Part shown: one piece after another, positions 23,199 to 34,086 of the stretch
Layout: each line of letters starts with the position of its first letter
How positions within the stretch are numbered: position 1 is the stretch's first letter
Source: a virus
Taxonomy: Duplodnaviria; Caudoviricetes
Strand: one strand, 5' to 3'
Length of the DNA: 64,000 bases
IMG/VR virus record: IMGVR_UViG_3300044305_003112
Coordinates: 9,273-73,272 of that record
Position numbers and translations under genes: made by a program
The notes under the pieces: model-generated
What the model saw: only the letters and a program-made list of their open reading frames with translations
Database searches by the model: none
What the model was told of the DNA's origin: nothing

Positions 23199-23297
23199 AT
23201 CGTAAATATGTTATTTTCTGATATAACATTAATTTAAGTATTAATTCCGATTACGTTTTCTAATAAGCGTACTTTCCAAACAAAAATTTTAGGAAAA

Positions 23298-24779
23298 ATG
23301 AATAGAGATTTTTTAAAAGAGGCTATTGCCGACGCTAAAGCTGTAAAGGAATCAGCTATCGCGAATGCTAAAGCTGCTTTGGAGGAATCATTTACACCAC
23401 ATCTGAAAAACATGTTATCTATGAAATTACAAGAAATGGATAAAGAAGATGATGTCAAAGAAATGATGTCAAAATCATATGAAGAAGATGATGTAAATGA
23501 AGCCAAAGAAGAAGAAGAAGCAAAAAAAGCTAAAAATGAAGCTAAAATGTCAAATCCAGTAATGAGAAAAGGTTTAAAGGGAGACGATCCTGCAGAACTT
23601 GAAACCGAAAAAGATCGTTTAAAAAAGGAAGACATGAATTTAGATGAAATTTTAGCAGAATTAGAATCTGACACAGTCAATGAAGACGCTAGAACAGATG
23701 CTGAAGAAGAAGGATACAAAGATGGTATCAAAGACGCTAAAGCAGATATTAAAAAAGCTGTCGACGATGTTAAATTACAAGAAGACGAACGTACAGACGC
23801 TGAAGAAGAGGGATATGAAGATGGGATGAAAGATGAAAAAGAAGACCTTGAAGGTGATGTAGGTGAGGAAGAAGTAATAGATATCGAAGATATGACTGAT
23901 GAAGATTTAAAAGGATTTATCGAAGACGTTATTGAAGACATGGTTACTGCTGGTGAATTAGAAGCTGGTGGTGATACTGTTGAAATGTCCGATGAAGAAG
24001 AAGAAGTTGACGTAGACGTAGATGTTGATGTTGATACTGAAGAAACAGAAGAAACAGAAACTGAAGTTGAAGTCACTGAAGAAATGAAAAGTAAAGAAGA
24101 AGTTAAAGAAATAGTTGGAGTAGCTGCTGGTTTTGCAGGTTTATTTGCTGCCGCAGGCGGTATGGCTGCACTACAAATGGCTATGGAAAACCCAGAAACT
24201 GCTGCTAAATATCCAAAAGTTTCGGCTTTATTGGATATATTAAGTGATGTAGGTGCAGAAGCATCTAAAGCAAAATTTTCAGAAGCAACAGGAGAAGAAG
24301 TAGCTTCCGAAGAACACTTAAGTGCAATTGAGGATAAGCTTGGCGGTATATTTGAAAACGCTAGAACAGATGCTGAAGAAGAAGGATACAAAGATGGTAT
24401 GAAAGACGCTAAAGCAGATATGAAAGAAGCTTATTCAACAATTAAAACATTAAAAAGTGAACTTAATGAAATTAACTTACTGAATGCTAAATTGTTGTAT
24501 ACCAATAAGATTTTTAAATCAAAAACATTAAATGAGAATCAAAAGGTTAAAGTATTAACTGCTTTTGACAAAGCTGAAACTGTAAAAGAAGCAAAATTAG
24601 TTTATGAAACTTTACAAGATGGATTAAAAGCTAAATTAAAAGCTAAAGGTTCAATCAAAGAAAGTAGAATAGGCAGAGCTTCAAAAACTCTTCATGCTCC
24701 TAAAAAAGCAAATAAAAAACCTATCGTTGAATCAAATCAAATGGTTGATAGATTTAAAAAACTAGCAGGAATAATTTAA
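23298..24779 (+). CDS. prohead scaffold/core protein (gp22-like), very acidic
   Basis: Lies between protease and MCP; coiled-coil ends, acidic repeats, C-terminal RFKKLAGII capsid-binding-type tail. Confidence 0.88.
   Translation: MNRDFLKEAIADAKAVKESAIANAKAALEESFTPHLKNMLSMKLQEMDKEDDVKEMMSKSYEEDDVNEAKEEEEAKKAKNEAKMSNPVMRKGLKGDDPAELETEKDRLKKEDMNLDEILAELESDTVNEDARTDAEEEGYKDGIKDAKADIKKAVDDVKLQEDERTDAEEEGYEDGMKDEKEDLEGDVGEEEVIDIEDMTDEDLKGFIEDVIEDMVTAGELEAGGDTVEMSDEEEEVDVDVDVDVDTEETEETETEVEVTEEMKSKEEVKEIVGVAAGFAGLFAAAGGMAALQMAMENPETAAKYPKVSALLDILSDVGAEASKAKFSEATGEEVASEEHLSAIEDKLGGIFENARTDAEEEGYKDGMKDAKADMKEAYSTIKTLKSELNEINLLNAKLLYTNKIFKSKTLNENQKVKVLTAFDKAETVKEAKLVYETLQDGLKAKLKAKGSIKESRIGRASKTLHAPKKANKKPIVESNQMVDRFKKLAGII
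23686..23749 (+). repeat. 64-bp direct repeat, copy 1, in the scaffold gene (ARTDAEEEGYKDGIKDAKAD)
   Basis: 63/64 nt identical to 24358-24421; a third, diverged copy lies near 23781-23835. Confidence 0.9.
24358..24421 (+). repeat. 64-bp direct repeat, copy 2, in the scaffold gene
   Basis: 63/64 nt identical to 23686-23749. Confidence 0.9.
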
Positions 24780-26483: not shown

Positions 26484-26513
26484 TTTTTATTAATTAGTAT
26501 TTAGTCTTTTAAG

Positions 26514-26541
26514 AGCCCCGCAATAGCGGGGCTTTTTTTTT
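26514..26541 (+). terminator. rho-independent terminator after MCP
   Basis: AGCCCCGC-AATA-GCGGGGCT followed by a T run. Confidence 0.93.
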
Positions 26542-26573
26542 ACTTAACTTGTATATTTAGTAGGTAGTTAGTA

Positions 26574-26581
26574 TATGTATA
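26574..26581 (+). promoter_or_regulatory. late-promoter variant TATGTATA
   Basis: between the MCP terminator and ATG 26604. Confidence 0.5.
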
Positions 26582-26603: not shown

Positions 26604-27521
26604 ATGAAAGAGACACCTTCTCAGTTGCCTTTTCCAAGTTTTGTTATGAATTTTCCGTTTTCGTTTTCCACAGAAAATCCAAATAACATATGGATGCAAG
26701 AAATGTCCTCTGAAGAATTAGAAGTAAACAGAGGAAAAGCTTACAAACAATTTATGGACTTATACAATTTTGTATCAGGTGCAGGATTTGTATGTAATTT
26801 ACCAAGCCATGGTAATAAATTTCAAGATTTAGTATATGTTGCTAATATGGGGATTTATCTACCACATATAAAAGATAGTAATAATATTATTATGTCTAAT
26901 TTTACTTCCCCTCCTAGACAGGGTGAAGAATTAGTAGGAAAACCATTTTTTGAATTAATGAATTATAATACTTATGATTGTCCTTATAAATTTGAAGGAG
27001 AAGCTGATTTAAAGTATTTATATGGTAATAATTTTATAGGAGGATATGGCATAAGATCAGAAAAAGAAGCTTTTGAATGGATGGAAGAAAAATTTAATAT
27101 GAATATTATTAAATTAGAAATGGTAGATGAATATCTTTATCATTTAGATTGTAATATTTTTCCATTAACAAAAGAAAAAACATTAGTATGCCCTGAATTT
27201 CACCTCCCAGAAGAAATTAAAGAAATAGAAAAATATACTGAAATAGTAGAAGTAAGTTCTAATGCGGTTTATAATGGAATTTGCAATTCAGCACGTGTAG
27301 GAAATATGATTTTATGTGCTTCAAATATATCTGAATTATCTATAAATGATGAAACATATGACGCTGAAAAACATAAAATACACGCGTTAGAAAAAATATG
27401 TTACAATGAAGGATTAGAACCTATTATATTTAATATATCAGAGTTTATGAAATCAGGTGCAATGTTATCTTGTATGATTATGCATTTGAATTATGTTGAT
27501 TATGAAAGAAGTTTATTATAA
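26604..27521 (+). CDS. amidinotransferase/pentein-superfamily hydrolase (ArgZ/DDAH-like)
   Basis: QDLVYVANMG, FEGEAD, YLYHLDCNIFPL, SEFMKSGAMLSC with the C-terminal catalytic Cys. Confidence 0.85.
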   Translation: MKETPSQLPFPSFVMNFPFSFSTENPNNIWMQEMSSEELEVNRGKAYKQFMDLYNFVSGAGFVCNLPSHGNKFQDLVYVANMGIYLPHIKDSNNIIMSNFTSPPRQGEELVGKPFFELMNYNTYDCPYKFEGEADLKYLYGNNFIGGYGIRSEKEAFEWMEEKFNMNIIKLEMVDEYLYHLDCNIFPLTKEKTLVCPEFHLPEEIKEIEKYTEIVEVSSNAVYNGICNSARVGNMILCASNISELSINDETYDAEKHKIHALEKICYNEGLEPIIFNISEFMKSGAMLSCMIMHLNYVDYERSLL

Positions 27522-28256
27522 ATGGCACAAAAATTAGAAGACTGGTTAAATACAGAAGTTGAAGAGTTATCAAAATTACCTGTTGGTGATTTATCAAATA
27601 CATTCTTTTTTAGGGACCCTATGCGTCCTAATTATATAGATTATAAACATTTTTACTCACCAGCAGATGGAGTAATTTTATATCAAAAAATAATAGAAGA
27701 TGTAAACGATCCTGTTGTTGAAATTAAAGGAAGAAATTATACTTTACCAGATGTAATGGGTGATAAAAACTATAATAAACCTTCTTTAGTTATAGGAATT
27801 TTTATGACATTTTATGATGTTCATATAAATAGAATACCATATCCTGGAGTTTTAAATTTTAAACCTTTAGATCCTATTGAGTCTGTAAATAAACCTATGT
27901 TAGCTGTTGAAAAAGATATTTTAGAAATGGCTATAAACCCAAATAGTATGGGTTATTTACATTATAATCAAAGGATGTGGAATAAAATATATTGTCCTAG
28001 TATAAATTATACTTATTATTTAATACAAATAGCAGATGAAGATGTAAATGTAATAGCTCCTTTTGTAAATCATCAATATGAAATGATGGAACAAAATTCA
28101 AGATTTTCTCTTATACGATGGGGTTCACAAGTAGATTTAGTATTACCATTAGATGAGAGATTTAATTTTGAATTATTGTTAGAAAATGAAATGCATGTAA
28201 ATGCAGGTTTAGACAAGTTAATCAAAATAAATTTCACAAATAATGACAAAATCTAA
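27522..28256 (+). CDS. phosphatidylserine-decarboxylase-fold pyruvoyl-dependent decarboxylase proenzyme
   Basis: FFFRDP.R, FYSPADG (D49), DVHINRIP (H101), IRWG|SQVDL (G201-S202 autocleavage site). Confidence 0.85.
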   Translation: MAQKLEDWLNTEVEELSKLPVGDLSNTFFFRDPMRPNYIDYKHFYSPADGVILYQKIIEDVNDPVVEIKGRNYTLPDVMGDKNYNKPSLVIGIFMTFYDVHINRIPYPGVLNFKPLDPIESVNKPMLAVEKDILEMAINPNSMGYLHYNQRMWNKIYCPSINYTYYLIQIADEDVNVIAPFVNHQYEMMEQNSRFSLIRWGSQVDLVLPLDERFNFELLLENEMHVNAGLDKLIKINFTNNDKI

Positions 28257-28908
28257 TATGGAAAAATCCCCACCTAAAGGATCAGTAAGATTCTCTCTAT
28301 CTTTATCTCCTGAACAAAAAAAAGCAAAAACTGAAATATTAAAACATCCTTTTAATTTTATTGTAGGAAAAGCTGGAAGTGGAAAAACATTACTAGCAGT
28401 TCAAGTTGCATTAGATCAATTTTTTAAAAGAGAATTTAATAAAATTATTATAACAAGACCTACTATTTCAACAGAAGATAATGGATTTCTACCAGGTTCA
28501 GAAAGAGAAAAAATGGAACCATGGTTAGTTCCTATTAGAAGTAATATGAGAAAAGTTTATAATAAACCTAACATATTACAAAAAATGGAATCTAATGAAC
28601 AAATTGAATTAGTCTCATTAGCTCACTTTAGGGGTAGAACATTTGATAACTCAATAGTAATAGTGGATGAATTTCAAAATTTAACAAGATCACAATTAGC
28701 AATGGCTGTTGGAAGATTAGGTAAAGATTCAAAAATGTTATTTTGTGGAGATTCATACCAAATTGATTTAAAAGATAAAAATTATTCAGCATATCATGAC
28801 ATGGCTAAATTAGTAAATTCAGATTATGTTTTTAAATGTGTGTTAAATGATTCTCATAGACATGATGCTATAGATAATTTATTAGAATTATTAAATGGAT
28901 ATCATTAA
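28243..28908 (+). CDS. phoH: PhoH-family ATPase
   Basis: GKAGSGKT, ITRP, GFLPG..EKM.PW, FRGRTF, IVDEFQN, LGKDSKMLFCGD..QIDL, RH. Confidence 0.95.
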   Translation: MTKSNMEKSPPKGSVRFSLSLSPEQKKAKTEILKHPFNFIVGKAGSGKTLLAVQVALDQFFKREFNKIIITRPTISTEDNGFLPGSEREKMEPWLVPIRSNMRKVYNKPNILQKMESNEQIELVSLAHFRGRTFDNSIVIVDEFQNLTRSQLAMAVGRLGKDSKMLFCGDSYQIDLKDKNYSAYHDMAKLVNSDYVFKCVLNDSHRHDAIDNLLELLNGYH

Positions 28909-28926
28909 TTTCCCAATACTTTTTTA

Positions 28927-28934
28927 TATTTATA
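28927..28934 (+). promoter_or_regulatory. putative late promoter motif TATTTATA(AATA)
   Basis: in the gap before ATG 28945. Confidence 0.55.
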
Positions 28935-28944
28935 AATAAAACTT

Positions 28945-29352
28945 ATGGCAGCAGGAAAATATAATTTTGTAATAGAACAAGGATCTACAGTAGATTTTGA
29001 AATCCAATATAAGGATTCAGCATCAGTTCCCGTAGATTTATACAGTCATCATGCTAAAATGCAATTAAGATCGGGTTATGGTAGTGATGCTAAATTATAT
29101 TTAACTCTTAGTAGTAGTTTAGACACTTGTGGTGGAGGATTAAATTTAAGTGGATCAAAAAGTGATTCAACTTATCCTAAACCTCTAGCATCAGGAGCTA
29201 TTGGGATATATATTACTGGATACTCATCTTCATTTTTAGATTTTAATGAAGCATATTATGATTTAGAATTATATTCTGGTAGTGGAACATGTCAAACTGT
29301 TACTAGAGTGCTCGAAGGTAAAATAAAATTATCTAAAGAAGTAACAGTATAA
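28945..29352 (+). CDS. tail-fibre attachment/BppU-N-like beta-sandwich protein
   Basis: YNFVIEQGST, VPVDL...AKMQLR, AYYDLEL, TRVLEGKIKLSKEVT; precedes the fibre gene. Confidence 0.6.
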   Translation: MAAGKYNFVIEQGSTVDFEIQYKDSASVPVDLYSHHAKMQLRSGYGSDAKLYLTLSSSLDTCGGGLNLSGSKSDSTYPKPLASGAIGIYITGYSSSFLDFNEAYYDLELYSGSGTCQTVTRVLEGKIKLSKEVTV

Positions 29353-29355
29353 ATA

Positions 29356-32300
29356 ATGGCTGTAAATATAAATCCAAAAAATACTAATGTACAGGTAAAT
29401 TCTGCTAAAAATGTAATCACTATTACTAACAAAACTAGTAATAAAAGTGTTTTAGTCCAACCAGAAACAACCAAAATAGTCCAAGTAAATACTCCTGGAC
29501 CAATGGGTCCATCATTTGGAGGTACCTTAACAGGTTCTTTAAACATATCAGGTTCATCTGATTTTTCTGGTGATGTTTTAATAGAAGGAAATTTAAAAGT
29601 AGAGGGTTCATCTTCATTTGAAGGAAATATATCTTCATCAGGAGGAACTATAAGTGGAAGTAAATATTTAGTTTCAACTAATATAACAGGAAGTAGTGCA
29701 AGTTTTGATGGATATTATTTTAATAATCAATGGGGTAAAAGAAATGCATCAATATTTGTAACTGATCGGTTTGGAAATACAGGTGGAACCTATCCATCTT
29801 CATCTAATTCTAGTAGTAATTACATTAATATAGGTCAAAAAGATAGTCTTTCTAGTGGTATAGTACTTAATGCAAAGTACTTTAGTATAACATCTTCGGG
29901 TATATTTTCTTCAAGTGATTATTTTGTAGCACCTAAATATTTTGTCCAACAAAGTACTGGAATAGGTCTTTCTAATTTTACTGCTGGTGGGGGTTCTGCT
30001 GGTGATTATTTACAATTAAGAAATACAACTCATTCGAATGACCAAATAGAATTTATCTCTGCACCAGCAGGACAAATGATTCGTAATAGATCAAGATCTT
30101 TTAATATTGTATTGGATTCTCAAAACGCAACAACTTCTTCTCGTTTTAATATATTTAGAGATTTTCAACAACCAAGTGTCATTTTCCCAGGCCTTGGAGC
30201 AGATTTAATGTTTTCTGTAGATAATTGGGGTAATGTAACTGCAAGTCGAGGAGGAAAAGGAAGTGGAGGTAGTGCTACTGATTTACAAAATAGTGGTAAT
30301 ATTAGTGCAAGTGGATTTATGTATGCTTCAAAATATTTTGGGGATGATGATAGTAATATAGGTACTTATAGTAGGGTTTCTACTCAAACAACATATGGAA
30401 ATACAAATAAACCAACAATAATCCAAGGTGAAGTAACAATGTCTGAACCGGGAGGTTTACTAGTAAACAGTAATATAAGTGCAAGTGGTGATGTAATTAC
30501 ATCTAATATAAGTGCAAGCGGTTATGTAAGTGCATCTCAATTTATAGGTTCTTTTTCGGGAAGTATAAATAATGCTGTTACAGCTTCATATTCAATATCT
30601 TCATCATATGCAGAATCATCAGATCATTTTACAGCATCATTTATTAGTTCAAGCGGTTATGTTTCTGCATCTCAATTTATAGGCTCTCTTACGGGATCAA
30701 TTACTCCATCATCATTACCAAGTGGTATAATTTCAGGATCTTCTCAATTACCAAGCGGTATAATATCTAGTTCAACCCAATTACCAAGTGGAATAATATC
30801 AAGCTCTCTTCAATTACCTTCTGGCATAATATCTGGTTCTGATCATATATTTACAGCAATAACATCATCAGGTAATATTAGTGCAAGTGGTTATATAAGT
30901 GCAAGTGAGTTTAGTGGTTTATTTACTGGATCTTTATTTGGATCTTCATCATATGCTACAACTTCATCTTTCGCAATGACTGCATCTTACGCACACTCTG
31001 CATCAATTGAAATTACTCATGAAGTATCTTCATCATATGCAGAATCAGCATCATTTGCCCAACATTCTGACATCTTTACAGCATCTATTGTAAGCGCAAG
31101 TGGTACAGTAATAGGTAATACAATGGTTGTTAATACTGACACACCAGCTGAAGATATGGAATTTACTGTTGTAGGTGATATGAGTGCAAGTGGATATAAT
31201 TATACTAATCTTGGATTATTTGTAAACCAAACCCAATCTGTTGTAAGTGTGGGATTGGTTCTTCCTCATTTAGGGTTAGCATTTGGAAATAGCAACCATG
31301 CATCATCTTTAATAGGAAATATAATTAATTTAGGTAGTAATGATGACCAACACACAACAGCATCAGGTAATATAAGTGCAAGTGGTAATATATTTGGGAA
31401 TGTTGGAACATTTAATGATTTAGGAAATATAACAGCATCAGGCAATATAAGTTCAAGCGGCTATGTTTCTGCATCTCAATTTATAGGCTCTTTTACAGGA
31501 TCATTTTTTGGAACAATAGAATCATCATCATATGCTACAACAGCATCATTTGCTCAACATTCTGATAATTTTACAGCATCTATAGTAAGTGCAAGTGCTC
31601 AAATGTTTTCACCTAAATATTCAATAGATAATCAAAATTATTTTGATAAAACACAAATAGCCTTTACAAACACAGGAGATAATCTTGCTCTTAGAGCAGG
31701 TTTATCAGGTGTAGATCAAGGACAACCTTTAATGGATTCTGTTGGTGGTTTTTCTTTTATGTTAGATAGTAATGGTGCAGGTAATGATGCATTTTTTAAT
31801 TTATATAAAGGGGGCACTATTCCAGCATTAGGAACTCAAATATTTCATATAGATAATAGTGGTAATATAACAGCATCAAGTAATATGAGTGCAAGTGGTT
31901 ATATTTCTGCATCTCAATTTATAGGTTCTTTTACAGGATCAATTTCAGGAGTAGAATCATCATCATATGCTACAACTGCATCTTTTGCCCAACATTCTGA
32001 TAATTTTACAGCATCTATTGTAACAGCATCTCTATTTGTAGGGGCAGAGTCTTATTATGCAGTAGGTCAACAAATTTTAGCTTATATACCAGCATATTCT
32101 ACATTTTATTTTGGTAATAATTCATTTAAAACTCAAGTCCAAGGTACAAACATATTATTAAATGCACCCGTAACAGCATCAGGTAATGTAAGTTCAAGTG
32201 GCACAATACGAAGTCAAGATTTAATAGTAGATAGAAATATAACAACAAATATAAGTTTAAATGTAAATGGATTAACAACATTTAGTGGATCATATGGAAA

Positions 32301-34086
32301 TTATAATACCCCTGCACTTGGAAGTGGACAATTAACAGCAGCTGTAGTAACAGGATCAATAATTCCACAAGTTGATGTACCTTATAATGGTACACATGAA
32401 TTAGGAAGTAAATCAAATCCATGGAGAAAAGTATGGGTTGCAGGAGCATCATTAGAATTTGTTAGTGCTTCTTCAGAAGGTACCAATGTTGTATCTGAAT
32501 CTTTTACATATGCTAATATTAATAGATTACAAGAAGGAAAAACACTTGCTACACAATCTATAGGTTCATTGGGAACAGATTATGCAAAATACGCAGCATG
32601 GATTCATCCCCAAACTGATACTTCATATCAAAAATTAGATTCAGATAGATATCAATTTGTAATATTAGGTTCAGAAGTATTTGATCTTCAAGCAGGAACT
32701 ACAACCGTATCTACTAATAATTTTGTAGCTAAATCTATAAGTGCAAGTGGTCATATAACATCATCAAATGTAAGTGCAAGTGGAAATATCTTTGGTAAAG
32801 ATGCACAATTTGGGAGTAATACTGTGATTATAGATGGTGATGGTGGTCATATAACAGCCTCAGGTAATATAAGTGCAAGTAATAATGTATATGGTAAAGA
32901 AATATGGTTTAAAGATAAACTTCAACCTACAGCAGGAAATGATTTAGATGATCGCATATTATATAATCCTGAACCAAATAGATATTTAGCTTTTTCTCTT
33001 GATGGTGCTGATTATTTTAGAGTTTATAATGGAACAATGACTTTTGGTGACATTGATAATGTTACTGGTGCTGACTTTGCTATGAATGGAAATTTCAGTG
33101 CTAGTGGTACTGTATATACTAATAAAATTCGTACTAAAAGAGTAGGTGCTTCTGATGTTAGCAACAATTTAGAATTATTTGCATTAACATCTCAAGGATA
33201 TATAGGTTATACAATATCAAGTTCAGGTAATGCTCTTGTTCCTCAAAATTCCACTACAAGATTAGGATTAGGATCAACTAAACTACCAGCAGTAGGTTCA
33301 AGATTAGACCTAACTGGAGATATGATAATAACAGGAAGTATAACATCTTCAGGTGGTGATATAAGTGCAAGTAGTCACATACATGGACTTACACATTATG
33401 GCTCTACATTTCAACCACTACCAGGAAATACATCAGTAGGTATTGGTTCAATAAGCACAACTTCTCAAAACTTTACTATAACTATAGGCCATCATACAAA
33501 TCCTGCACCACTTACAATAAATTCAGATATAACAGCATCAGGTAACATAAGTGGTAGTGCAACTACATCTAATTTTATAGCAGCAACAGGTTCATTCCAA
33601 AAATTAACAGGAGATACAACCCAAGCAACAGCATTAGAAGTTGAAGGATATGTAAGTGCAAGTTACTTTACAGGTAATATATTATACCAAACAGGCTCTG
33701 TATCATCAGGTGCAATACAAGGAGAAGGAGAGATAATTTATTTTGGTAATACTAATGTAACAGCTGGAGAAATATATACTATTAATCCTGCAGGAGGATG
33801 GACGCAAGCTACTTACCAAACTGCAGCAGCAGCAACCGGATCTTTAGCATTAGCATTAGGAACAAATTCAACAACCCATGGGATGTTATTAAAAGGTACA
33901 GCAAAAGTAGCAAGCAACCCCGGTAGTGTAAGTGTAGGAGCACCATTATATTTATTTTCAGCTGGGAGAGCAAATAAAGAATTTGCATATTCCTCAGGAG
34001 AAATAGCTAGAATAGTAGGATACTATTTAAAATCAGATGGAACAATTTTATTTGATCCTGACAAAACATGGGTAGTTGTAAGTTAA
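29356..34086 (+). CDS. giant S/G/T/A-rich repetitive tail fibre / virion appendage protein
   Basis: 1576 aa with many ITASGNISASG, SASQFIGSFTGS and SSYATTASFAQHSD repeats. Confidence 0.8.
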   Translation: MAVNINPKNTNVQVNSAKNVITITNKTSNKSVLVQPETTKIVQVNTPGPMGPSFGGTLTGSLNISGSSDFSGDVLIEGNLKVEGSSSFEGNISSSGGTISGSKYLVSTNITGSSASFDGYYFNNQWGKRNASIFVTDRFGNTGGTYPSSSNSSSNYINIGQKDSLSSGIVLNAKYFSITSSGIFSSSDYFVAPKYFVQQSTGIGLSNFTAGGGSAGDYLQLRNTTHSNDQIEFISAPAGQMIRNRSRSFNIVLDSQNATTSSRFNIFRDFQQPSVIFPGLGADLMFSVDNWGNVTASRGGKGSGGSATDLQNSGNISASGFMYASKYFGDDDSNIGTYSRVSTQTTYGNTNKPTIIQGEVTMSEPGGLLVNSNISASGDVITSNISASGYVSASQFIGSFSGSINNAVTASYSISSSYAESSDHFTASFISSSGYVSASQFIGSLTGSITPSSLPSGIISGSSQLPSGIISSSTQLPSGIISSSLQLPSGIISGSDHIFTAITSSGNISASGYISASEFSGLFTGSLFGSSSYATTSSFAMTASYAHSASIEITHEVSSSYAESASFAQHSDIFTASIVSASGTVIGNTMVVNTDTPAEDMEFTVVGDMSASGYNYTNLGLFVNQTQSVVSVGLVLPHLGLAFGNSNHASSLIGNIINLGSNDDQHTTASGNISASGNIFGNVGTFNDLGNITASGNISSSGYVSASQFIGSFTGSFFGTIESSSYATTASFAQHSDNFTASIVSASAQMFSPKYSIDNQNYFDKTQIAFTNTGDNLALRAGLSGVDQGQPLMDSVGGFSFMLDSNGAGNDAFFNLYKGGTIPALGTQIFHIDNSGNITASSNMSASGYISASQFIGSFTGSISGVESSSYATTASFAQHSDNFTASIVTASLFVGAESYYAVGQQILAYIPAYSTFYFGNNSFKTQVQGTNILLNAPVTASGNVSSSGTIRSQDLIVDRNITTNISLNVNGLTTFSGSYGNYNTPALGSGQLTAAVVTGSIIPQVDVPYNGTHELGSKSNPWRKVWVAGASLEFVSASSEGTNVVSESFTYANINRLQEGKTLATQSIGSLGTDYAKYAAWIHPQTDTSYQKLDSDRYQFVILGSEVFDLQAGTTTVSTNNFVAKSISASGHITSSNVSASGNIFGKDAQFGSNTVIIDGDGGHITASGNISASNNVYGKEIWFKDKLQPTAGNDLDDRILYNPEPNRYLAFSLDGADYFRVYNGTMTFGDIDNVTGADFAMNGNFSASGTVYTNKIRTKRVGASDVSNNLELFALTSQGYIGYTISSSGNALVPQNSTTRLGLGSTKLPAVGSRLDLTGDMIITGSITSSGGDISASSHIHGLTHYGSTFQPLPGNTSVGIGSISTTSQNFTITIGHHTNPAPLTINSDITASGNISGSATTSNFIAATGSFQKLTGDTTQATALEVEGYVSASYFTGNILYQTGSVSSGAIQGEGEIIYFGNTNVTAGEIYTINPAGGWTQATYQTAAAATGSLALALGTNSTTHGMLLKGTAKVASNPGSVSVGAPLYLFSAGRANKEFAYSSGEIARIVGYYLKSDGTILFDPDKTWVVVS
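30715..30840 (+). repeat. 33-bp tandem repeat, about 3.8 copies (LPSGIISxSxQ)
   Basis: units start with TTACC at 30715, 30748, 30781 and 30814. Confidence 0.85.

What the first reader, a model, noticed from the sequence alone, without database searches (positions are those of the whole stretch)
26604..28908. Pentein hydrolase + soluble PSD-fold pyruvoyl decarboxylase + PhoH: candidate new Arg->ornithine->putrescine route
Seen: a tightly coupled operon (TAA-ATG adjacency, then a 14-nt overlap) right after the MCP terminator, with a late-type motif. Gene 1 has the QDLVYVANMG/FEGEAD/YHLDC/EFMKSG..C motifs, matching the PDMVFTANAG-type penteins that include the cyanobacterial arginine dihydrolase ArgZ domain (Arg to ornithine). 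Gene 2 keeps the PSD Asp-His-Ser self-cleavage triad (D49, H101, G201|S202), but its N-terminus is acidic and lacks a membrane anchor, which suits a soluble substrate. Inference: ornithine decarboxylation by a PSD fold, giving polyamine for packing a large genome or for DNA modification. Known pyruvoyl ornithine/arginine decarboxylases belong to other folds. Alternative: amino-lipid remodelling under phosphate limitation, given the PhoH link.
Basis: partly seen in the sequence, partly recalled or inferred. Interest (0 to 1): 0.82.

Follow-up and report, generated by a model that had tools for sequence, protein, structure and literature searches.

The report
Phage arginine-to-putrescine enzyme pair
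Right after its capsid gene, this uncultured T4-like phage carries an arginine-dihydrolase-like enzyme and a soluble relative of phosphatidylserine decarboxylase; the same uncharacterised gene pair is widespread in phages and bacteria and most likely turns arginine into the polyamine precursor putrescine.

Summary
Three intact, tightly packed genes lie at 26604-28908: a 305-aa pentein, a 244-aa PSD-family protein with D49, H101 and G201|S202, and PhoH. They sit behind a strong terminator and a recurrent promoter-type motif.

The pentein models onto the cyanobacterial arginine dihydrolase ArgZ (TM 0.80/0.90). It keeps ArgZ's catalytic residues and both arginines that hold the substrate carboxylate in related enzymes. 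The PSD-like protein has the PSD fold but no membrane segment. In bacteria it is a paralog beside a canonical PSD.

The two genes are adjacent in every related viral contig long enough, in either order, and in 75 of 80 bacterial loci. In three other lineages the pentein is fused or adjacent to a SpeD-fold pyruvoyl decarboxylase instead, and phage members of that family are published ornithine/arginine decarboxylases.

Best reading (about 0.5): Arg to ornithine to putrescine. Rival orders via agmatine or citrulline remain open. A lipid role is unlikely.

A PSD-fold arginine decarboxylase (Ao-ADC1) is already published, and PhoH is only a local neighbour. No paper on the pair was found. Other agents of this scan reached the same reading on related phages.

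The parts
26511..26536 (+). Intrinsic terminator after the major capsid gene
   Evidence: 11-bp stem with 7 GC pairs, followed by a T-run. Relatives show compensatory changes in the stem.
26572..26581 (+). Promoter-type motif TATATGTATA, a one-base variant of TATATTTATA
   Evidence: All 7 window matches are on the + strand, intergenic, 11-35 nt before a start codon. The motif is conserved at this place in 11 of 14 diverged relatives. Promoter function is inferred.
26604..27521 (+). Pentein (guanidino-group-modifying) enzyme, ArgZ-like; proposed L-arginine dihydrolase
   Evidence: PDB sequence search gives AgrE/ArgZ at E 5e-17. The AF2 model (pLDDT 95.7) matches ArgZ 6jv1 at E 5e-22, TM 0.80/0.90, rmsd 2.3 A. 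D75, N81, R105, E131, D135, R151, H180, D182 and C290 are kept.
27522..28256 (+). Soluble PSD-family pyruvoyl proenzyme; proposed ornithine (or arginine) decarboxylase
   Evidence: PF02666 at 76.9 bits. The AF2 model (pLDDT 89.9) matches E. coli PSD at Z 11.9, PsiD at 9.7 and Ao-ADC1 at 9.5. D49, H101, G201 and S202 are invariant in 41 sequences. There is no TM segment.
28243..28908 (+). PhoH-like ATPase, co-transcribed neighbour; not part of the conserved pair
   Evidence: PF02562 at 168 bits. It lies downstream of the pair only in the window's clade.
28925..28934 (+). Next copy of the promoter-type motif (TATATTTATA), marking the end of the cassette
   Evidence: it lies 11 nt before the start of the next gene at 28945.

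Best explanation
The first two genes form a self-contained, soluble two-enzyme module that makes putrescine from L-arginine. Gene 1 is an ArgZ-type arginine dihydrolase: a Cys290 thiolate attacks the guanidino carbon, and two hydrolytic rounds release 2 NH3 and CO2 and leave L-ornithine. Gene 2 is a PSD-fold proenzyme that cleaves itself between G201 and S202, creating an N-terminal pyruvoyl group on a 43-aa alpha chain. It then decarboxylates ornithine to putrescine through a Schiff base. The cassette has its own promoter-type motif, shared with structural genes, so the diamine would be made late, when DNA is packaged and translation demand is high. The host would convert putrescine onward to spermidine. 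What is shown: gene integrity, folds, residue conservation, gene linkage, paralogy with canonical PSD, and partner swapping with the SpeD fold. What is inferred: both substrates, the order of the steps, the timing and the physiological purpose.
For: Pentein: (1) It is closest to the ArgZ/AgrE arginine dihydrolase by sequence (E 5e-17) and by structure (E 5e-22, TM 0.80/0.90). DDAH scores about 1e-12, amidinotransferases 1e-9 to 1e-11 and C. jejuni agmatine deiminase 1e-8. (2) It keeps the equivalents of ArgZ D65, N71, R90, E118, D122, R139, H168, D170 and C264 (my count through the alignment). N71 and C264 are the residues mutated in the deposited structures 6juz, 6jv1 and 6lrh. (3) R105 and R151 are 96-97% conserved in 92 diverse homologs. 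In ADI and DDAH the equivalent pair binds the substrate carboxylate, and the H-x-D form (not DDAH's H-x-K) fits an unsubstituted guanidine (PMC11659421). This argues for an amino-acid substrate and against agmatine. PSD-like protein: (4) It has the PSD fold and an invariant D/H/GS set. It lacks the TM-like N-terminal segment of canonical short PSDs from the same bacterial genomes (max KD19 about 1.0 against 1.8-2.3). (5) In 4 of 5 bacterial genomes it is a second, lower-scoring PSD-family gene beside a canonical PSD. (6) PSD-family enzymes acting on free amino acids are published: PsiD (PMC11929908) and Ao-ADC1 (PMC12904898). Linkage: (7) The two genes are adjacent in all viral contigs long enough, with the order swapped in L039, and they co-occur in Campylobacter Fletchervirus and Bacteroides DAC phages. 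(8) They are adjacent in 75 of 80 bacterial loci, and no third gene recurs. Partner swapping: (9) In three separate pentein branches the partner is an AdoMet_dc (SpeD)-fold pyruvoyl enzyme instead, fused in P0172 and directly upstream in L042 and L125. Phage SpeD homologs are proven ornithine or arginine decarboxylases (PMC9992855). (10) These partners lack the proline that marks true AdoMetDC and carry Gln/Thr/Phe/Tyr as reported for the ODC type (PMC10407285). (11) PSD-carrying phages have no AdoMet_dc gene (0 of 5 genomes). Other context: (12) In L013 an agmatine-deiminase-family gene sits between the pair.
Against: No biochemical data exist for any member of either subfamily. No PSD-fold enzyme is known to act on ornithine, and the nearest published soluble examples use arginine or tryptophan, so the agmatine-first order cannot be excluded. 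Both proteins score far below the NCBIfam equivalog cut-offs (79 against 450 bits; 63 against 183 bits). The role of R105 and R151 is inferred by homology; I could not read the ArgZ/AgrE papers or inspect coordinates. The SpeD-fused pentein P0172 has Phe at the R151 position. Some actinomycete copies beside a PSD-like gene have lost the Cys and His, so the decarboxylase can be kept without pentein catalysis. In Fletchervirus the two genes lie 43 kb apart. None of five complete phage genomes encodes spermidine synthase, carboxyspermidine dehydrogenase or carboxyspermidine decarboxylase. Neighbours such as Tet/JBP in L039 and a GMP-reductase-like gene in DAC19 leave some room for a nucleic-acid-related role.
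Confidence: 0.5

Rival explanations
1. Same end product, reverse order. The PSD-like enzyme is a pyruvoyl arginine decarboxylase (as Ao-ADC1 is) that makes agmatine. The pentein then hydrolyses agmatine to putrescine (an agmatine dihydrolase) or to N-carbamoylputrescine.
For: Ao-ADC1 shows that the PSD fold can decarboxylate arginine (PMC12904898), and the model matches it at Z 9.5. L013 carries an agmatine-deiminase-family gene between the two genes. Some phage SpeD homologs are arginine decarboxylases (PMC9992855).
Against: The pentein keeps both arginines that bind the alpha-carboxylate in ADI and DDAH, at 96-97% conservation, which agmatine does not need. It is structurally far closer to ArgZ than to agmatine deiminase (5e-22 against 1e-8). 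Identity to Ao-ADC1 is only 14%, and the fungal N-terminal helical region is absent.
Confidence: 0.17
2. The pentein stops at citrulline, acting as a deiminase. The PSD-like enzyme decarboxylates citrulline to N-carbamoylputrescine, and the host's N-carbamoylputrescine amidohydrolase finishes the conversion to putrescine.
For: From general knowledge, the known hosts of isolate phages carrying the pair (Campylobacter, Bacteroides) make putrescine via N-carbamoylputrescine. In L013 the inserted agmatine-deiminase-like enzyme would feed the same intermediate.
Against: The Asn equivalent to ArgZ N71 is kept in 88% of homologs. The N71S mutation traps a reaction intermediate in ArgZ (6juz title). 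Nearly all bacterial loci carry only the two genes. No citrulline decarboxylase of any fold is known to me.
Confidence: 0.08
3. The pair acts on another guanidino or amino compound. It would then make a specialised amine for a natural product, a virion component or a DNA modification, and not bulk putrescine.
For: Actinomycetes carry extra, partly inactive copies. The GenBank note on Fletchervirus gp085 cites similarity to AF210249_12, which I recall as an ORF of the bleomycin cluster record. One pentein relative sits beside a YqcI/YcgG protein. Tet/JBP neighbours the pair in L039 and a GMP-reductase-like gene lies near it in DAC19. Fletcherviruses have dI-substituted DNA (PMC13091555).
Against: The pair is a stand-alone unit in 75 of 80 bacterial loci across many phyla, with no recurrent tailoring, carrier or DNA-modifying partner. 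Its swapping with SpeD-fold decarboxylases points to ordinary basic amino acids.
Confidence: 0.15
4. Gene 2 is a genuine phosphatidylserine decarboxylase that remodels host membrane lipid, and the pentein and PhoH are unrelated neighbours.
For: The Pfam PS_Dcarbxylase hit is above the gathering score. The best NCBIfam hits are short-type PSDs, and the FFRD, PADG, DVHxNR and GS motifs are shared with them.
Against: There is no hydrophobic segment where short PSDs have one. It is a paralog beside a canonical PSD in 4 of 5 bacterial genomes. It is near-obligately linked to a guanidino hydrolase. In other lineages it is replaced by a soluble SpeD-fold decarboxylase. Its scores are far below every PSD equivalog cut-off.
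Confidence: 0.04

Closest known systems
ArgZ (Synechocystis Sll1336) and AgrE (Anabaena Alr4995) arginine dihydrolase domains, PDB 6juy/6jv0/6jv1/6lrf
   Same: Same pentein fold (TM 0.80/0.90, rmsd 2.3 A). Same catalytic Cys/His/acid set, the N71 equivalent, and both conserved arginines.
   Different: Only 22-24% identity in the structural alignment. It is a stand-alone 305-aa protein with no ornithine cyclodeaminase-like C-terminal domain. It is paired with a pyruvoyl decarboxylase. It scores far below the NCBIfam Arg_dihydro cut-off (79 against 450 bits).
Aspergillus oryzae Ao-ADC1, a PSD-family pyruvoyl arginine decarboxylase (PDB 9JER; PMC12904898)
   Same: PSD-family catalytic domain, self-cleavage at Gly-Ser to a pyruvoyl group, a free amino acid as substrate, and no PSD activity.
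   Different: Ao-ADC1 has 483 aa with an N-terminal helical region and a GGST site. Identity to the model is 14% at Z 9.5. It has an acidic pH optimum. No pentein partner is mentioned in the review I read.
PsiD, L-tryptophan decarboxylase of Psilocybe (PDB 8x4q/8zia; PMC11929908)
   Same: Soluble PSD-fold pyruvoyl enzyme acting on a free amino acid; Z 9.7.
   Different: 439 aa, with a hydrophobic pocket for indole. It is fungal and belongs to a secondary-metabolite cluster.
Canonical phosphatidylserine decarboxylase: E. coli PSD (6l06/7cnw) and the short bacterial/archaeal type
   Same: Same fold (Z 11.9) and the Asp/His/Gly-Ser self-processing set. The FFRD...PADG...DVHxNR motifs are shared with the short type.
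   Different: No membrane-binding segment. It is a separate paralog in genomes that also hold a canonical PSD, and it has an invariant acidic IADxDV motif.
Phage SpeD-derived pyruvoyl ornithine/arginine decarboxylases, SpeDC/SpeDA (PMC9992855, PMC10407285)
   Same: Phage-borne pyruvoyl decarboxylases that make putrescine or agmatine. They occupy the same position next to, or fused with, the pentein in other lineages.
   Different: An unrelated fold (AdoMet_dc). Those papers do not mention the pentein partner or any PSD-fold enzyme.
Chlorovirus PBCV-1 arginine-to-putrescine pathway: ADC, agmatine iminohydrolase and N-carbamoylputrescine amidohydrolase (PMC9992855)
   Same: A virus-encoded route from arginine to putrescine.
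   Different: Three steps through agmatine with PLP, pentein (agmatine-type) and nitrilase enzymes. Here there are two steps with other enzyme types.

Membership tests
ArgZ/AgrE-type arginine dihydrolase (pentein superfamily) | Five-fold alpha/beta propeller pentein fold closest to ArgZ | tested here: met
   AF2 model pLDDT 95.7. ArgZ 6jv1 matches at E 5e-22, TM 0.80/0.90, rmsd 2.3 A, ten orders of magnitude better than DDAH.
ArgZ/AgrE-type arginine dihydrolase (pentein superfamily) | Catalytic Cys (C264), His (H168) and acid residues (E118, D170), plus the Asn71 needed for the second hydrolysis | tested here: met
   C290, H180, E131, D182 and N81 align to them (alignment, counted by me). They are 88-95% conserved in 92 homologs.
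ArgZ/AgrE-type arginine dihydrolase (pentein superfamily) | Two arginines that bind the substrate alpha-carboxylate | tested here: met
   R105 and R151 align with AgrE R90 and R139 and are 96-97% conserved. Their role is taken from ADI and DDAH (PMC11659421) and was not seen directly here.
ArgZ/AgrE-type arginine dihydrolase (pentein superfamily) | Score above the curated NCBIfam equivalog cut-off | tested here: not met
   Arg_dihydro NF052232 scores 79.4 bits against a cut-off of 450. It is a distinct subfamily, not an ortholog.
ArgZ/AgrE-type arginine dihydrolase (pentein superfamily) | Converts L-arginine to L-ornithine, 2 NH3 and CO2 | not testable with these tools
   Needs an enzyme assay.
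DDAH (dimethylarginine dimethylaminohydrolase) | Lys two residues after the catalytic His (H-x-K), which makes room for the methylated guanidine | tested here: not met
   The protein has H180-L-D182, the ADI/ArgZ form. This holds although Pfam DDAH_eukar passes its cut-off (28.4 against 23 bits).
Agmatine deiminase (PF04371) | Match to the PAD_porph profile, and a pocket without carboxylate-binding arginines | tested here: not met
   No PF04371 hit at E 0.1. C. jejuni AguA 6b10 matches only at E 1e-8. Both arginines are retained.
Phosphatidylserine decarboxylase family (PF02666), fold level | PSD fold, with the Asp/His/Ser self-processing residues and a Gly-Ser cleavage site | tested here: met
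   PF02666 at 76.9 bits against a cut-off of 22. Z 11.9 to E. coli PSD. D49, H101, G201 and S202 are invariant in 41 sequences. Which E. coli histidine (H144 or H147) H101 matches is ambiguous in the pairwise alignment.
Genuine phosphatidylserine decarboxylase (lipid enzyme) | Membrane-binding or transmembrane N-terminal segment | tested here: not met
   Max KD19 is 0.96 in the window protein and the subfamily median is 1.0, against 1.8-2.3 in canonical short PSDs of the same genomes. The segment before FFRD is a fixed 28 aa and acidic.
Genuine phosphatidylserine decarboxylase (lipid enzyme) | Is the organism's PSD, scoring above the equivalog cut-offs | tested here: not met
   The best NCBIfam PSD equivalog scores 63 bits against a cut-off of 183. 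In 4 of 5 bacterial genomes a separate canonical PSD is present.
Ao-ADC1-type PSD-family arginine decarboxylase | Close relationship to the fungal ADC clade; activity on arginine | tested here: inconclusive
   Z 9.5 at 14% identity, no closer than PsiD or E. coli PSD. Activity is not testable here.
PhoH-like ATPase | PhoH P-loop domain | tested here: met
   PF02562 at 168.4 bits; phrog_170.

The most novel reading that the evidence does not exclude
The pair is a previously undescribed, widespread two-step route from arginine to putrescine. A stand-alone ArgZ-type arginine dihydrolase feeds a soluble PSD-fold pyruvoyl ornithine decarboxylase. This would be a new substrate class for the PSD fold and a further independent origin of ornithine decarboxylase. 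The route is used by many bacterial phyla and by abundant marine T4-like phages, Bacteroides phages and Campylobacter phages. A SpeD-fold decarboxylase is an interchangeable second step.
Probability: 0.45. Interest if true: 0.75.

Novelty: new variant of a known kind. Interest (0 to 1): 0.62.

Why it matters
Polyamines are needed for phage replication and DNA packaging, and the published survey of virus-encoded polyamine enzymes (PMC9992855) does not include this pair. If the reading holds, several things follow:
- It adds a route to putrescine that avoids arginase, PLP-dependent decarboxylases and the agmatine branch.
- It corrects thousands of database entries now labelled 'phosphatidylserine decarboxylase' or 'amidinotransferase'. 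These labels feed lipid-metabolism claims in viral auxiliary-gene surveys.
- It assigns a function to PHROGs 12759 and 12670.
- It gives a clean case of non-homologous replacement, PSD fold for SpeD fold, at one pathway step.

The claim can be tested directly with two small soluble proteins.

Tried and rejected
- **Ralstonia phage RSL1:** I guessed that the unlisted Ralstonia phage hit was RSL1, which encodes homospermidine synthase. RSL1 has no pentein, and the Ralstonia and Xanthomonas hits remain unidentified.
- **Profile scan for distant penteins:** A 36-sequence profile was too diverse for a viral-contig scan. The 10-sequence profile returned only the close clade. Single queries P0169 and P0141 found nothing or little. 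The SpeD-pentein link therefore rests on three contigs.
- **ArgZ and AgrE structure papers:** They are not held, so contact residues are inferred from ADI and DDAH.
- **SpeDC diagnostic residues:** Their positions are given only in a figure, and the supplement has no sequences. The ODC-type call for the SpeD partners is unverified.
- **Small upstream genes:** The 106-aa protein upstream of P0152 is not SpeD-like and has no Pfam hit. The 260-aa protein upstream of P0160 is not PSD-like and looks like another pentein.
- **T4 late promoter:** TATAAATA is not enriched in the window.
- **Neighbour clustering:** The first all-against-all run timed out and was repeated on a smaller set.
- **Residue mapping:** The first mapping was off by one and was redone.
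- **Not attempted:** complex prediction (no binding claim is made), read mapping, and a survey of whether module-bearing bacteria lack other ADC or ODC genes.
Full report
**Where the window comes from.** The window is part of a 73-kb IMG/VR viral contig estimated at about 45% complete. GC content is about 29% and all genes lie on one strand. The gene upstream of the finding is a T4-type Gp23 capsid protein. Its nearest isolates are the Flavobacterium 'immuto' phages at 57% identity, and those did not appear among the hits for either enzyme. Complete relatives of the window's clade are 166-172 kb.

**The observation.** The three ORFs are at the stated coordinates.
- The first junction is TAA|ATG.
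- The 14-nt overlap with PhoH depends on using the first ATG; an ATG at 28258 is also possible.
- A strong terminator follows the capsid gene, and its stem shows compensatory changes among relatives.
- The 'late motif' is not the T4 TATAAATA, which is not enriched. A motif TATAT[T/G]TATA occurs seven times in the window, always on the coding strand in an intergenic gap 11-35 nt before a start codon. Two of these copies bracket the cassette, at 26572 and 28925. The motif is kept in 11 of 14 diverged relatives.

The cassette is therefore a transcription unit that shares a signal with structural genes. Late expression is an inference.

**Gene 1.** Pfam gives only a weak DDAH_eukar hit. NCBIfam points to arginine dihydrolase, mycobacterial DDAH and ArgZ at about 79 bits, far below the cut-offs. 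PHROGs places it in a family of unknown function.
- The best solved relatives are AgrE and ArgZ (E 5e-17).
- A confident model (pLDDT 95.7) superposes on the ArgZ dihydrolase domain at TM 0.80/0.90 and rmsd 2.3 A (E 5e-22). DDAH scores about 1e-12, amidinotransferases 1e-9 to 1e-11 and C. jejuni agmatine deiminase 1e-8.
- Counting through the AgrE alignment, D75, N81, R105, E131, D135, R151, H180, D182 and C290 match AgrE D65, N71, R90, E118, D122, R139, H168, D170 and C264. N71 and C264 are the residues mutated in the deposited structures.
- These residues are 88-97% conserved in 92 diverse homologs and intact in the Fletchervirus, DAC19, L013, L039 and bacterial proteins.
- In ADI and DDAH the two arginines bind the substrate carboxylate. 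H-x-D marks an unsubstituted guanidine, whereas DDAH has H-x-K (PMC11659421).

I conclude that gene 1 is an arginine-type hydrolase of the ArgZ kind. It is neither a DDAH nor an agmatine deiminase. Activity is inferred.

**Gene 2.** It passes the Pfam PSD threshold but no PSD equivalog threshold.
- The model (pLDDT 89.9) matches E. coli PSD (Z 11.9), PsiD (Z 9.7) and Ao-ADC1 (Z 9.5).
- D49, H101, G201 and S202 are invariant.
- Canonical short PSDs from the same bacterial genomes have a TM-like stretch before the shared FFRD motif (KD 1.8-2.3). This subfamily instead has a fixed 28-residue acidic segment, with a median maximum KD of 1.0.
- Four of five bacterial genomes with the module also hold a higher-scoring canonical PSD, so this gene is a paralog with another task.
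- Published precedents show that the PSD fold can act on free tryptophan (PsiD, PMC11929908) and free arginine (Ao-ADC1, PMC12904898).

**Linkage.**
- Both genes hit the same isolate phages. In Campylobacter Fletchervirus they lie at separate loci. In the Bacteroides DAC/SJC phages they are adjacent.
- In IMG/VR they are adjacent in every contig long enough. The order is swapped in L039, and an agmatine-deiminase-family gene is inserted between them in L013.
- The PSD-like subfamily is also widespread in bacteria, including Actinomycetota, Acidobacteriota, Gemmatimonadota, Verrucomicrobiota, Campylobacterota and Proteobacteria.
- A pentein lies immediately downstream in 75 of 80 bacterial loci, and 62 of these keep every key residue.
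- No third gene recurs. Occasional neighbours are a MATE transporter, a solute-binding protein and an amino-acid kinase.
- PhoH follows the pair only in the window's clade.

**Partner swapping.** The pentein family is large: 1018 representatives at E < 1e-3, some carrying inteins. In three separate branches the neighbour is an AdoMet_dc (SpeD)-fold pyruvoyl enzyme instead. It is fused in P0172 and directly upstream in L042 and L125.
- Phage SpeD homologs are proven pyruvoyl ornithine or arginine decarboxylases (PMC9992855).
- These partners lack the proline diagnostic of true AdoMetDC. They carry residue types reported for the ornithine type (PMC10407285), but I could not verify the positions.
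- Their nearest isolate relatives are Sinorhizobium phage proteins, which that paper places in the ODC-type clade.
- Five complete genomes with the PSD-like gene have no AdoMet_dc gene and no downstream polyamine enzymes.

Two unrelated soluble pyruvoyl decarboxylases alternating beside one arginine-type hydrolase is the strongest argument for a small-molecule basic-amino-acid pathway.

**Mechanism and odds.**
- Arginine to ornithine to putrescine is favoured, at about 0.5. The pentein keeps the carboxylate-binding pair and the dihydrolase Asn.
- Agmatine first: about 0.17.
- Citrulline to N-carbamoylputrescine: about 0.08.
- A specialised amine or a nucleic-acid-related role: about 0.15.
- A true lipid PSD: about 0.04.

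Inactive pentein copies beside PSD-like genes in some actinomycetes, and the Phe at the R151 position in P0172, are not explained by the main reading.

**Novelty.** Library searches found no paper on this pair, and the polyamine virosphere papers do not mention it. Earlier notes of this scan on related phages (e1-5848349, e1-5848358) reached the same reading. They are unchecked AI notes, and I re-derived the claims here. I rate the finding as a new variant of known kinds of enzyme and pathway, with moderate to high interest.

Noticed in passing
P0202, P0223, P0249, P0252, P0270 (pentein homologs from the representative search): Several pentein homologs of 590-942 aa are interrupted by inteins with LAGLIDADG homing endonucleases, which is unusual for a metabolic gene.
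   Followed up: partly
L132:5001-7185 (Campylobacter phage NCTC12673 gp085/gp084): The Fletchervirus PSD-like gene is overlapped at its 3' end by a Hef-type homing endonuclease gene, and the same arrangement is annotated in most Fletchervirus records.
   Followed up: no
L133:8747-9694; also L176, L178, L181-L184, L189: Extra copies of the module in Allokutzneria and Streptoalloteichus keep an intact-looking PSD-like gene, but the adjacent pentein has lost the catalytic Cys, His or R151. These are possible pseudoenzyme partners.
   Followed up: partly
L124:3-2456: A degenerate pentein (P0160, which lacks the His and Cys) sits between another pentein-like ORF and a YqcI/YcgG-family protein. From memory, that family includes arginine N-hydroxylating haem enzymes.
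   Followed up: no
P0141 (L042:3987-5309): A pentein is fused at its C-terminus to an InPase (PF18823, inorganic pyrophosphatase) domain and preceded by a 106-aa SpeD-like gene.
   Followed up: no
L039:6960-8339 and L001:9895-10866: A Tet/JBP dioxygenase gene directly follows the pair in one viral contig. In Bacteroides phage DAC19 an IMPDH/GMP-reductase-like gene lies about 2 kb downstream. This is of interest because the other isolate group with the pair, Fletchervirus, replaces dG with dI (PMC13091555).
   Followed up: no
window 29356-34086: A 1576-aa Ser/Gly/Thr-rich protein carries many copies of a motif like SASGYVSASQFIGSFTGS. It is probably a fibre or decoration protein with an internal repeat architecture.
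   Followed up: no
window 23234-24391 (- strand) against 23298-24779 (+ strand): A 385-aa Ser-rich antisense ORF overlaps the acidic, scaffold-like gene. It is almost certainly a compositional artefact of the Glu/Asp/Lys-rich sense frame.
   Followed up: no
window 6941, 17904, 19810, 26572, 28925, 39633, 44576: The motif TATAT[T/G]TATA occurs only on the coding strand, in gaps just upstream of genes. It is a candidate late promoter consensus for this phage group and differs from the T4 TATAAATA.
   Followed up: partly
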